From: a virus
Taxonomy: Duplodnaviria; Heunggongvirae; Uroviricota; Caudoviricetes
Length of the DNA: 64,000 nt
Reading direction: 5' to 3' (one strand)
Virus record (IMG/VR): IMGVR_UViG_2534682157_000019
In this document: piece after piece, positions 18,001 to 21,000 of the stretch
How the letters are laid out: every line of letters begins with the position of its first letter
How positions within the stretch are numbered: the stretch's first letter is position 1
Made by a program: the position numbers

Positions 18001-21000
18001 ATATTCATGTCCTTTCAACTGATCAACAGTCACTCCATAATATGAAGTGCCATTAATTCCAGAGGCGTCTGCTGCATATACGCCAGCAGAAAATACCGAC
18101 AGGCTTAATGCTGGTATTAAAGCCAACAATAGCTTGCTTGCCTTTTTCATGATGTGTACCCTTATGTTAAATCATGTTATAAATATGTTGACATTCGGAA
18201 CGCAAATGTCTTCAGGGATACTACTCATAATAACAAGGCAAATAAAATATTAAAATCAATGGGTTAAGAAAAATTAATGATTAAAATCACAAGAATGCAA
18301 TACGCATCAAAAACTTACCCTAAATAACACCAGTATTACTCAGAAAAAACAAAACATTTTCTGTGGTTATTATTTACCATTGATAAATATTACCTCTCTC
18401 TGTCAGCCTGCATTGTATAAAACATACACTACAAACGGGTGCCATATCGGCTGAACCTCAGCAACCAGTTGACGGGGACTTTCGTCCCCGTCGCGGTTTT
18501 CCTACTGCTTACACTGTAAGAACGCCGCAAACTCCGCTCCCCACAAATTCAGCCGGAACTCACACAGCGAACCGTGCAACATCCAGATAGTGAAGATAAC
18601 CGTCATACAAATTGTGACGGTGATAAGCGATTTTTGCGACATAGCGCTTGACTCCTTTTACAGAGAGGCGCTAACCTTCTACTTGCTTAAGGTATGATGA
18701 TTAGGGCCTCGGGTTAACGTTAAGTTGACTCGGGGCCTTTCCACATCAGGCCTTCAGGTTCTCCCTCCAGCCATCAGCCGAAAGGCACCCACGCATAATT
18801 TACGGTTTTTGCCCTGTACGGGCAATAAAAAACCCGCCATCACAGCGGGTAGTAAACGGTTACCGGATACAGGTCAGAATTTCAGGCCAATGCCAGCAGT
18901 AACGCCACTCGTGCGCCAGTCGCCAGAGCCGGAACCTTCGTAAGCCACATCCAGTGTAACACTCTCATTCAGGTTAAACTGTGCACCTGCAGCCCACGCA
19001 AGGGAGGTTTTTTTCGTGCTGTTGCTTTCAGAAAATCCGCCACTACTGTTAATATTGTCCTTAATTTTCAGGTCAGCGCTAACTTTAGCAACGCCCATCC
19101 CTGCCATCGCATATAAACTCATGTACTGATTAACCCGCCATGAAGGCCCCGCTAACAGACTCCAGTAATTCGCCCTGATATCCGTTCTGGCAGAAGCTGC
19201 CGGATTCTTAATCTTCCTGGTATGATCGGCTGACTGCACATCAATAAATGTCTGTGAGTTAGTGAGAGAACGCGTCCATGTAAAAGAGGTGATAACGCCA
19301 AAATCATCCGTTATCTCGTAGCGATACCTGATATTAATGCCCTGTGGATTTTTATCCTTGCCTTCATATCCACTGACCCGACCATCTGTATATTCGCCCA
19401 ATGAAGAAAAGTAGTTTCTGTTGACGAAATGACTGAAAGTCTCCCTGTTATGAGCAGTCGCATCCTTTACAAAATCCTTCAGTCCCGGAAACTGAAAGTG
19501 CGCATACCCCAGAGAAATTGTATGGTTTCCTTCTGCTGCATGTGCAGATAAATTTACACAGGCAATCCCGGAGATTGCACACACAACCAGTGTTGCTATA
19601 CTCTTCATTTAAGATATCCTGTATTCAGATAACACGCTAAACTTTTTAATAATACATCTTTTTAGACATTTTAAATGAATATTAAAGACTCGCTTCAACT
19701 AATCATATACTGATGTATTAATAACCAGGACCTTATCTATATACGGCTTTCGAATATCCCATGTTGCACCACCGGAATAATGCTCACAGGAATATATTTT
19801 ATTTCCTGTAGCACCAGTGGATGTGGTATAAATCGGTCGATCATAAGGAGTTCTTTTCCAGTTATAATACCCGACCAGTGCAGGCATGATTGCGCATGGA
19901 TATCCAAGGTCCTTTTCAAATTTGATATCAACAGGTATTAACTTCGCGTCAAGCAGCATCATTTCGCCATGATAAATCATCTCACCGTCCGGGTTATACA
20001 TGGCGATACCATACTCAGAAGGTGGAGTAACCATATTCGCGAAAGCATAAACCATCGTAACACCAGGGTTCGTTCCCCTGACAATTACATGAAGCCTTAG
20101 TGCATGATATCCATCAATCTGTTCATGCGTGTACATGACATCGGCCTTCTTCTCTGTTCTGATAAAGAAAAAACAACTTTTGCCTGACGGGATTGATGTT
20201 TTAAAAAAAGACTTTTCAGTCGCCGGTATGGTGCCTTTGTTGATCAGACACTGCGGCGTAAAACCTGGACTTATCCATACGCTGCCATCCGGCTTCATAA
20301 TGCTCAAACCATACATGACACTTATCCCCAGAATGTATAAATATAAGATCCCATACCCTGCTCAAGATTCGACCACGTCACCGTATTGCCATTAATGGTT
20401 ATCTTCGGTACTTTCCGATCCGCAAATACGTTATTCCAGGGAAATAAACAACATACAGCCTGCAATGATTTCCCGTCGGGTTTATTCGTGTACGTCTTTG
20501 AGCCAGACTCCGCTGTAAATCTGTCCAGGAAAAATACCGGAGTCAGCACGCCCGTAACATTAACGTTATTTCTGTTATAAATGGCAAAACCGTATTCCAA
20601 TACTCACCTCCTGATCAGCGTAATCTGCCTATGCGAACAGCCAGTCGTCCATTCTGATCATAAACCTCAATTTTATCATTGCGGATCACCAGTCCTACAT
20701 TCTGATTAGAGTAACGAATTGTCAGTTGCCCTTGTGACGTAACACTGAAAAGGCCTCCAATATTCAGGTTACCCTGAGAATCAACCTGAAAGTTTCCGTT
20801 CTGAATAACGGCACTCCGGATAACTGGCGAAGTGATACTTACCCCGGCTTTTACCTCATCCGCCACAACCTTCCGCGACACCAGTGTTTCAATCACCGCG
20901 TCATAAATCATCGCTTTCGGGATCACAACCTTGCCACCTGATACCGCAAACGGATAGGCGGTGTTATCCGGGTTGTTCGGGTCAAAGACAAACAACTGCG

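What the first reader, a model, noticed from the sequence alone, without database searches (positions are those of the whole stretch)
18440..18760. Unannotated second hok-family type I toxin locus between the Eib-like and Lom-like genes
A 46-aa minus-strand ORF (18502..18642) has the Hok architecture and HokA/HokE-like motifs (SLCEF...AAFL), a strong SD, and a stable hairpin after the stop. It is below the ORF-track size cut-off. With the HokC/D-like gene at 4187..4342 the prophage carries two hok loci, each expected to have an antisense Sok RNA and a mok leader frame.
Basis: partly seen in the sequence, partly recalled or inferred. Interest (0 to 1): 0.6.

Follow-up and report, generated by a model that had tools for sequence, protein, structure and literature searches.

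The report
Second hok/sok toxin locus, already catalogued
The 46-codon gene between the Lom and Eib genes is a real Hok-family membrane toxin with the expected self-locking mRNA and a predicted antisense Sok RNA, but databases already annotate it and a preprint reports the peptide as toxic, so only its lack of the usual "mok" leader frame is mildly unusual.

Summary
A 46-aa minus-strand ORF (18502..18642) passes the Pfam Hok/Gef threshold, has an AAGGAG Shine-Dalgarno and is followed by a perfect 9-bp hairpin. It sits in a ~354-nt hok-type mRNA (18790..18437). The mRNA has 5'/3' end-pairing (tac/fbi), a tac/ucb alternative helix and a 3' stabiliser hairpin. A 57-nt antisense Sok is predicted at 18684..18740 (+). 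Across 22 homologous copies the structure is 97.6% paired, against about 40% in slid controls, with many compensatory changes.

It is not new. RefSeq annotates the identical CDS as "Hok/Gef family protein" (WP_000078907.1). The exact peptide is entry 72_1589 in a 2025/26 Hok survey, which cloned it and did not list it among its three non-toxic constructs. The same locus lies downstream of lom in 933W, Sp5 and about 200 Stx phage records, and 1750 of 5426 complete E. coli genomes carry a related copy (≥77% identity) of this hok subfamily.

It is distinct from the published hokW-sokW, which is the window's other hok locus (about 4018-4404).

One expectation fails. No mok frame reaches the hok SD here, nor in 15 of 22 homologs. 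In plasmid R1 such a frame is mandatory.

Sok expression and native regulation remain untested.

The parts
18832..18850 (-). Intrinsic terminator of the upstream lom gene. It marks the upstream boundary of the hok unit.
   Evidence: Terminator-like stem of 8 pairs followed by TTTTTATT. The lom CDS is 18874..19608 (-).
18797..18825 (-). Predicted hok promoter: -35 TTGCCC (18825-18820), 17-nt spacer, -10 TAAATT (18802-18797). The transcription start is about G18790.
   Evidence: Hexamers, spacing and distance to the invariant 5' GGGTGCC are kept in the homolog alignment. The consensus scan did not call it (8 of 12 matches). This is an inference.
18437..18790 (-). Full-length hok mRNA, about 354 nt, from the invariant 5' GGGUGCC to the 3' GGCACCC.
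   Evidence: MFE -152.7 kcal/mol, z -7.3, with the ends paired. Full-length homologs were found in 1742 E. coli genomes. On 22 copies the consensus structure is 97.6% paired against 36-43% when partners are slid.
18774..18790 (-). tac element (GGGUGCCUUUCGGCUGA). It pairs with fbi in the full-length RNA and with ucb after 3' trimming.
   Evidence: Inverted repeats I6 and I7. Base-pair probabilities show the switch from 18438-18453 to 18732-18737. Columns 1-6:380-385 are 100% paired, and columns 8-11:50-53 carry 6 double compensatory changes each at two pairs.
18720..18746 (-). Short upstream ORF (ATG 18746, MWKGPEST, stop TAA 18722-18720) with GAAGG 4 nt upstream. It may be a vestigial mok start. 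It does not reach hok.
   Evidence: The ATG is conserved in E. coli copies but absent in the Salmonella copies, and the ORF length varies from 1 to 79 codons.
18732..18742 (-). ucb-like box GGAAAGGCCCC, the alternative partner of tac.
   Evidence: I6, 90% complementary. One search shows it paired to 18780-18786 in the truncated RNA.
18684..18740 (+). Predicted Sok antitoxin RNA, about 57 nt: a 19-nt single-stranded 5' tail, a 16-bp GC-rich hairpin and UUU.
   Evidence: The same rule reproduces the annotated 71-nt sokW of 933W exactly. The hairpin is kept in all 22 homologs, while the tail is the most variable segment (0.372 pairwise difference against 0.224 for the leader). No transcript data exist.
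18648..18677 (+). Predicted Sok promoter: -35 TTGACT (18648-18653), 18-nt spacer, -10 TAACCT (18672-18677).
   Evidence: The TAACCT box is kept in 20 of 22 homologs (TATCCT in the other 2) and is identical to the -10 box of the experimentally validated sokW locus (PMC8621323). The consensus scan did not call it.
18652..18657 (-). hok Shine-Dalgarno AAGGAG. It is enclosed by the conserved AGCGC/GCGCU hairpin and faces the conserved CCUCUC anti-SD (18668-18663).
   Evidence: helix 6, 98% paired.
18502..18642 (-). hok CDS, 46 aa (TM helix about residues 6-22; Cys27 and Cys44).
   Evidence: The ORF is intact in 22 of 22 homologs, and codon-position variability is 0.276/0.135/0.364.
18522..18531 (-). 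Downstream box UUUGCGGCGU that pairs with the hok start region AUGUCGCAAA (18642-18633).
   Evidence: RNAalifold helix 7: 10 pairs, 98.6% paired, with only wobble-type variation.
18471..18492 (-). GC-rich 3' hairpin after the stop codon. It is presumed to protect the processed, active mRNA from exonucleases.
   Evidence: Helix 13 has 5 of 9 pairs with double compensatory changes. Its role is inferred from R1 (PMC9841398).
18437..18454 (-). fbi element (UCAGCCGAUAUGGCACCC), complementary to tac.
4018..4404 (+). Context: the other hok locus of the prophage, the homolog of the published hokW-sokW. Hok is at 4187-4342 and the sokW equivalent at 4068-4138 (-).
   Evidence: Rfam sok 111 bits. Takada et al. 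primers map here. It is 91.8% identical to the annotated 933W mokW/hokW/sokW.

Best explanation
This is an intact hok/sok-type type I toxin-antitoxin module of the 46-aa, HokA-like Hok subfamily ('cluster 72' of Escalera-Maurer et al.). It is carried as a self-contained cargo unit between the lom terminator and the next gene of an Stx-phage-type prophage.

Proposed mechanism:
1. A weak constitutive promoter makes a stable ~354-nt hok mRNA. Its 5' tac is locked to the 3' fbi. Its SD and AUG are sequestered, the SD by a local anti-SD hairpin and the AUG by a downstream box, so the full-length RNA is inert.
2. Slow 3' trimming back to the GC hairpin (18471-18492) removes fbi. tac re-pairs with ucb, and the leader and start region open.
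3. A short-lived ~57-nt antisense Sok (18684-18740, +) pairs through its variable 5' tail with the opened leader. The duplex is destroyed, presumably by RNase III.
4. When Sok supply fails (prophage loss, transcription shut-off, or prophage induction as shown for the paralog sokW), Hok is translated. It inserts into the inner membrane and depolarises or kills the cell.

Shown here: family membership of the peptide, the conserved RNA architecture with covariation, and the conserved antisense promoter and hairpin.
Taken from papers: toxicity of the exact peptide.
Inferred: Sok expression, processing, RNase III dependence, and physiological role.

Unlike R1, coupling to an overlapping mok frame cannot be part of the mechanism in this copy.
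For: - Peptide: Pfam HOK_GEF 33.2 bits against a gathering score of 22; best NCBIfam model HokA.
- Annotation: identical CDS annotated Hok/Gef in RefSeq.
- Toxicity: the exact peptide is 72_1589, cloned as LRP157 for arabinose-induced toxicity assays. The paper lists only 19_179, 60_1482 and 69_1540 as non-toxic.
- End-pairing and fold: (z -7.3).
- Structure on 22 homologs: 97.6% of cells paired against 36-43% slid, 72 double-change cells against 2-14, and 16 pairs with compensatory changes.
- Second end-helix: cognate 5'/3' partners pair better than non-cognate ones (permutation p about 0.008).
- Refolding: the predicted tac-fbi to tac-ucb switch raises accessibility of the hok AUG from 0.24 to 0.59.
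- Sok: the same layout appears in all 22 copies, with a conserved TAACCT -10. The rule reproduces the annotated 71-nt sokW.
- Insulation: Sok tails of the two loci give -30 to -35 kcal/mol for cognate pairs against -13 for non-cognate.
- Coding selection: ORF intact in 22 of 22 copies, with variability lowest at codon position 2 and highest at position 3.
- Spread: 1750 of 5426 complete E. coli genomes and 198 phage records.
Against: - There is no transcript evidence for Sok or for the mRNA ends at this locus.
- Neither predicted promoter reaches the consensus-scan threshold.
- The leader scores only 36.4 bits against Rfam sok, whose gathering score is 59.
- No mok frame reaches the hok SD, whereas in R1 that is required for Hok translation (PMC9841398). 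Native translation of Hok is therefore unproven.
- The predicted Sok does not overlap the hok SD or AUG.
- The toxicity data come from a preprint that used a heterologous SD and promoter. I could read the text statement but not the figure.
Confidence: 0.85

Rival explanations
1. A translationally silent hok copy. The ORF and RNA scaffold are intact. Because the mok frame is missing or truncated, the native mRNA never yields Hok. The locus is then a hitch-hiking relic, or acts only as an RNA.
For: - No leader ORF reaches the hok SD in this copy or in 15 of 22 homologs.
- In R1, premature mok stops upstream of hok and mok start-codon mutations abolish Hok synthesis (PMC9841398).
- From general knowledge (Pedersen & Gerdes 1999), the chromosomal hok loci of K-12 are mostly inactivated.
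Against: - The hok ORF is intact in 22 of 22 diverged copies with a coding-type substitution pattern, which implies the peptide is made and selected.
- The SD, AUG-pairing box and anti-SD are conserved.
- The subfamily has spread widely and been duplicated in tandem.
- The loss of mok is subfamily-wide, not a lesion of this one copy.
Confidence: 0.1
2. An orphan hok toxin gene without a dedicated Sok RNA, as is said of hokD/relF. It would be controlled only by mRNA folding and processing. On this view the conserved 'Sok promoter' boxes are conserved because they are part of the sense-strand SD/anti-SD hairpin.
For: - The -35 and -10 boxes overlap the SD and the AGGUUAGCGCC stem, so their conservation has a second explanation.
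- The consensus scan calls no promoter.
- The terminator U-tract is short (UUUCC).
Against: - The identical TAACCT box and the same hairpin-plus-short-U layout constitute the validated sokW (PMC8621323).
- The hairpin at alignment columns 54-90 varies only by Watson-Crick changes (GC to AU, CG to UA, no G-U), so it can form on both strands.
- The segment facing the Sok tail is the fastest-evolving part of the locus, as expected for a specificity determinant.
Confidence: 0.04
3. A chance small ORF in an intergenic region, not a gene.
For: The ORF is only 46 codons and falls below typical ORF-calling cut-offs.
Against: Pfam E 4e-8, 56 homologous proteins, a conserved mRNA structure, and reported toxicity.
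Confidence: 0.01

Closest known systems
hok/sok of plasmid R1 (the paradigm type I toxin-antitoxin system)
   Same: - A small Hok/Gef peptide with an N-terminal TM helix and an LCE motif.
- A long, stable mRNA closed by tac/fbi end-pairing, with a tac/ucb alternative helix and a 3' stabiliser hairpin.
- A cis-antisense Sok of about 60 nt made of a single-stranded 5' tail plus a hairpin, with its promoter inside the leader overlapping the hok SD.
   Different: - The peptide is 46 aa rather than 52.
- The leader scores below the Rfam sok gathering threshold.
- No overlapping mok frame exists: an 8-codon uORF ends 80 nt upstream of hok, whereas R1 needs mok translation up to the hok SD.
- It is prophage-borne rather than plasmid-borne.
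hokW-sokW of Stx2 phage Sp5/933W (Takada et al. 2021, PMC8621323)
   Same: - Same phage family. Both loci co-reside in 933W and Sp5 and in this window.
- Same overall architecture and the same TAACCT Sok -10 box.
- It is a plausible model for function: sokW disappears after mitomycin C, HokW appears and aids lysis and phage release.
   Different: - It is a different paralog. HokW is 51 aa and HokC/D-like, at window 4187-4342, and the published primers map only there.
- 933W hokW has an annotated in-frame mokW.
- The Sok tails are non-cognate.
- The 46-aa locus was left in place in the published deletion strains.
Chromosomal HokA (E. coli K-12) and 'cluster 72' of Escalera-Maurer et al. 2025/26
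   Same: - The best NCBIfam model is HokA. The M(S/P)QK N-terminus, SLCE motif and AAFL(A/Q)CK tail are shared.
- The exact peptide is entry 72_1589 of cluster 72.
   Different: - It scores 38 bits against an 89-bit HokA equivalog cutoff, so it is not a HokA ortholog.
- Cluster 72 was analysed only at the CDS level. Its Sok, mok and mRNA structure were not described in that work.

Membership tests
Hok/Gef toxin family (Pfam PF01848) | The peptide matches the family HMM above the curated threshold. | tested here: met
   33.2 bits against a gathering score of 22, E 4e-8, covering residues 8-44.
Hok/Gef toxin family (Pfam PF01848) | A peptide of about 50 aa with an N-terminal hydrophobic helix, the conserved L-C-E motif and a C-terminal Cys/Tyr. 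| tested here: met
   46 aa. L26, C27 and E28 are invariant or nearly so, and C44 is invariant in 30 relatives. This matches logo positions L30/C31/E32 and 48 described in 10.1101/2025.08.07.668861.
Hok/Gef toxin family (Pfam PF01848) | Toxic on expression. | not testable with these tools
   Reported for the identical peptide (72_1589, plasmid LRP157) by exclusion from the list of three non-toxic constructs. The source is a preprint and the figure was not readable.
HokA equivalog (NCBIfam NF007290) | Score at or above the equivalog cutoff. | tested here: not met
   38.4 bits against a cutoff of 89. It is HokA-like, not HokA.
hok/sok type I TA locus (R1 paradigm) | tac/fbi long-range pairing of the mRNA 5' and 3' ends. 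| tested here: met
   7 + 7 bp in this copy. Columns 1-6:380-385 are 100% paired in 22 copies with wobble changes only. The second helix is kept with different sequences (CGGCUGA/UCAGCCG, CGAC/GUCG, CGAU/AUCG).
hok/sok type I TA locus (R1 paradigm) | An alternative tac/ucb helix in the 3'-processed mRNA. | tested here: met
   9 of 10 complementary (I6). It is the predicted dominant partner after truncation. The UUUC/GAAA part has 6 double compensatory changes at each of two pairs. Processing itself was not tested.
hok/sok type I TA locus (R1 paradigm) | A cis-encoded antisense Sok RNA with its own promoter in the leader. | tested here: inconclusive
   The promoter boxes, hairpin and variable tail are conserved in 22 of 22 copies, and the rule reproduces the annotated sokW. 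There are no expression data, and the promoter is below the scan threshold.
hok/sok type I TA locus (R1 paradigm) | An overlapping mok reading frame whose translation reaches the hok SD. | tested here: not met
   None in this copy, and none in 15 of 22 homologs. The starts are unrelated in the other 7.
Rfam sok (RF01794, models the hok leader) | Score at or above the gathering threshold. | tested here: not met
   36.4 bits against 59 (E 1.8e-6 in an 801-nt search) at 18629-18790 (-). The other locus scores 111.5 bits.

The most novel reading that the evidence does not exclude
The 46-aa 'cluster 72' hok subfamily is a naturally mok-independent hok/sok variant. Hok translation would be gated only by RNA refolding, and Sok would act purely through duplex-triggered decay or remodelling some 45-100 nt upstream of the start codon, not through translational coupling. 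Stx phages would then carry two mechanistically different, mutually insulated hok systems. The second could explain the partial phenotypes seen when only hokW-sokW is deleted.
Probability: 0.35. Interest if true: 0.4.

Novelty: already known. Interest (0 to 1): 0.2.

Why it matters
As a discovery it matters little. The gene is annotated in RefSeq, catalogued in a Hok survey, and reported toxic. Three points are useful to specialists.

1. The experimentally studied hokW-sokW of Sp5/933W is not the only hok in those phages. The published deletion strains still carry this paralog, which may mask or contribute to lysis and phage-release phenotypes.

2. This widespread subfamily keeps every RNA element of the R1 paradigm except mok. 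That makes it a natural test case for whether mok coupling is dispensable.

3. The 3' end of the hok mRNA coincides with a mosaic junction of the prophage. This fits hok/sok behaving as a mobile cargo cassette.

Tried and rejected
- Rfam at gathering threshold finds nothing at this locus. Only the permissive local scan shows the sub-threshold sok match.
- The consensus promoter scan found no promoter on either strand. The promoters are therefore inferred from conservation and from analogy to sokW.
With the alignment it returned only 7 loci, three of them on contigs labelled Xanthomonas, Planococcaceae and Vagococcus, which are probably contamination.
- I first assumed the locus was the published hokW because some records call it 'MokW-like'. 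Mapping the primers showed that hokW is the other locus.
- I looked for a mok frame from the conserved upstream ATG/GTG and then in all frames with all start codons. None is conserved.
- EHEC RNA-seq/Ribo-seq (PMC5331693) lists only Rfam-defined sok loci, so it gives no evidence for this one.
- PMC5155283 and PMC1635323 contain nothing on this locus.
- I could not establish whether cluster 72 is in T1TAdb.
- L018-L020 (Salmonella) lack the 5' GGGTGCC end and were left out of the structure alignment.
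Full report
**Observation**

The minus-strand ORF 18502..18642 exists and encodes MSQKSLITVTICMTVIFTIWMLHGSLCEFRLNLWGAEFAAFLQCKQ. It has an AAGGAG Shine-Dalgarno at 18657-18652, 9 nt before the ATG. A perfect 9-bp hairpin with a 4-nt loop follows at 18471-18492. The peptide passes the Pfam HOK_GEF gathering threshold (33.2 against 22 bits, E 4e-8). Its best NCBIfam model is HokA, but at 38 bits it is far below the 89-bit equivalog cutoff. It is therefore a Hok-family member that is HokA-like, not HokA. The other hok named in the finding (4187..4342, +) is also real: Pfam 77 bits, and its leader hits Rfam sok at 111.5 bits.

**Is it unannotated or new?**

No, on both counts.
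- The 601-nt region is 100% identical to several STEC chromosomes. There PGAP annotates exactly this 141-nt CDS as 'Hok/Gef family protein', WP_000078907.1, between an Ail/Lom gene and a YadA-like (Eib-type) gene.
- The 376-nt hok unit is in 198 phage records, including 933W, VT2-Sakai (Sp5), phi24B and Stx2 converting phages I/II at about 97.6% identity, always just downstream of lom.
- It is unannotated in the 1999 933W record, but it is called 'MokW-like host killing' in NC_029120.
- 1750 of 5426 complete E. coli genomes carry at least one copy of this hok subfamily (77-100% identity to the query), with up to 9 places per genome.
- The exact peptide is entry 72_1589 ('high-abundance cluster' 72) in Escalera-Maurer et al., bioRxiv 10.1101/2025.08.07.668861. 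It was cloned (LRP157) for arabinose-induced toxicity assays. The text names only 19_179, 60_1482 and 69_1540 as non-toxic among the 45 constructs tested.

**Which hok is which**

Takada et al. 2021 (PMC8621323) characterised hokW-sokW of Sp5. They showed toxicity, neutralisation by sokW that partly depends on RNase III and Hfq, loss of sokW and RecA-dependent HokW production after mitomycin C, and a two-fold lower phage release in the deletion mutant. Their HokW is 51 aa, and all of their locus primers map to window 4023-4400. The annotated 933W mokW/hokW/sokW aligns to window 4010-4410 at 91.8%. The published system is therefore the window's other locus. The 46-aa gene is a second, separate paralog that co-resides in the same phages and was still present in the published deletion strains. 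According to the Hok survey, only 3.5% of hok-bearing phages encode two homologs.

**Anatomy of the locus**

I collected 22 distinct full-length copies at 73-98% identity. They come from E. coli, E. albertii, Citrobacter and Salmonella, in these contexts:
- after lom;
- after ogr at the end of P2-like prophages, beside serS or tRNA genes;
- after the J tail gene;
- as tandem duplicates or triplicates.

Their alignment shows these features in order:
- a promoter-like TTGCCC-17-TAAATT, six nt before an invariant 5' GGGTGCC (18790);
- the tac element GGGUGCCUUUCGGCUGA;
- a GAAGG-N4-ATG (18746);
- the ucb-like box GGAAAGGCCCC;
- a GC-rich hairpin;
- a hypervariable stretch;
- the invariant AGGTTAGCGCCTC box;
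- the SD and ORF;
- a GC hairpin after the stop;
- the fbi element ending in GGCACCC (18437).

RNAalifold recovers several helices on its own: the 5'/3' end helix, a UUUC/GAAA helix, the leader hairpin, a hairpin enclosing the SD, a 10-bp pairing of AUGUCGCAAA with UUUGCGGCGU inside the ORF, and the 3' hairpin.

On this structure 97.6% of cells are standard pairs, against 36-43% when partners are slid. There are 72 cells with changes on both sides against 2-14, and 16 pairs with compensatory changes against 1-7. The structure was predicted on the same alignment, which favours the unslid version. Even so, the 3' hairpin (5 of 9 pairs with double changes) and the tac/ucb pairs (6 double changes each) are clear.

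The second end-helix is gappy in the alignment, so I tested it separately. It is kept with different sequences (CGGCUGA/UCAGCCG, CGAC/GUCG, CGAU/AUCG). Cognate 5'/3' partners pair better than non-cognate ones (permutation p about 0.008, not corrected for relatedness).

Many helices contain G-U pairs that would be C-A mismatches on the other strand. That places these structures on the hok-sense transcript. The leader hairpin varies only by Watson-Crick changes and can form on both strands.

**Predicted switch**

In the full-length RNA, tac is paired to fbi with probability of at least 0.98. If the RNA is cut after the 3' hairpin, tac re-pairs with 18732-18737 (ucb). The unpaired probability rises from 0.24 to 0.59 for the hok AUG, from 0.01 to 0.60 for the upstream AUG, and from 0.29 to 0.46 for the Sok-tail target. 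This is the R1 scheme as summarised in PMC9841398. Here it is a thermodynamic prediction only.

**Sok**

On the plus strand there is TTGACT (18648-18653), an 18-nt spacer, and TAACCT (18672-18677). I took the start as the 7th nt after the -10 box and the end as the U-run after the hairpin. This gives a 57-nt RNA (18684-18740) with a 19-nt unstructured tail and a 16-bp hairpin. The same rule applied to the other locus gives 4138..4068. That equals the 71-nt sokW feature annotated in 933W and the '71-nt complementary' statement of Takada et al.. All 22 homologs give the same layout with a conserved -10 (TAACCT in 20, TATCCT in 2). The region facing the Sok tail is the most variable part of the locus (0.372 against 0.224 pairwise difference), as expected of a specificity determinant. 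The two Sok tails of this prophage are predicted not to cross-react (cognate -30 to -35, non-cognate -13 kcal/mol).

Caveats:
- There are no transcript data.
- Both promoters score 8 of 12 and are missed by the consensus scan.
- The boxes overlap sense-strand structural elements.

**mok**

From the conserved ATG (18746) the frame is MWKGPEST-stop and ends 80 nt before hok. From the adjacent GTG it ends 39 nt before hok. An exhaustive scan of all frames and ATG/GTG/TTG starts finds no leader ORF reaching the hok SD in this copy, in 933W, or in 15 of 22 homologs. The seven that have one use unrelated starts. The Salmonella copies lack the upstream ATG altogether.

In R1, translation of mok up to the hok SD is mandatory. 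Yet here hok is intact in 22 of 22 copies. Variability is lowest at codon position 2 and highest at position 3 (0.135 against 0.364), and synonymous single-nucleotide codon differences number 1223 against 1124 nonsynonymous. That argues the peptide is expressed and under selection.

I therefore favour a mok-independent mode of control in this subfamily. I give the alternative, a silent copy, about 10%. The Hok survey explicitly left mok, Sok and mRNA structure unanalysed. I could not check T1TAdb.

**Verdict**

Its residual interest lies in the absent mok frame and in its co-residence with hokW-sokW in Stx phages.

Noticed in passing
window 4018-4404 (+), especially 4131-4133: The window's hokW-sokW homolog is 91.8% identical to 933W mokW/hokW/sokW. 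The mokW start codon ATG of 933W is ATA here. The differences cluster in the Sok 5'-tail/mok-start region and in the loop of the 5' hairpin. This locus therefore also lacks its canonical mok start.
   Followed up: partly
window ~18433 (just 3' of the hok mRNA end at 18437): Homology to 933W-type phages stops about 4 nt after the fbi element. Downstream here is an AT-rich spacer and a YadA/Eib-like gene (16939-18150, -), whereas 933W has L0129. The hok mRNA 3' end coincides with a mosaic junction.
   Followed up: partly
L014 1511-2811; L021 455-1301; L022 454-1301: The same hok subfamily occurs as three tandem copies beside serS in E. coli N51 and as two tandem copies in Salmonella contigs. Each copy has its own full mRNA scaffold and a different Sok-tail region.
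   Followed up: partly
L012, L013, L016 (after ogr); L017 (after J): Copies of this hok sit at the extreme end of P2-like prophages, next to the attachment site (serS or a tRNA cluster), and between tail genes of lambdoid prophages. This suggests a recurrent cargo position at module boundaries.
   Followed up: no
L004, L005, L007: Near-identical E. coli-type hok loci lie on contigs of assemblies labelled Xanthomonas pisi, a Planococcaceae MAG and Vagococcus sp. This is most likely enterobacterial contamination of those assemblies.
   Followed up: no
window 41111-41324 and 41386-41597 (-); 46980-47063 (-); 47089-47162 (-); 765-853 (+); 46048-46138 (-): Rfam gathering-level hits elsewhere in the window: two adjacent STnc100 copies, C4 antisense RNA next to isrK, and two sRNA-Xcc1 copies.
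   Followed up: no
Sp5/933W (H74, H75, H77): The strains used to study the hokW-sokW deletion (PMC8621323) retain this second hok locus. It is a possible confounder of the partial phenotypes (two-fold phage yield, 40-min delay).
   Followed up: no
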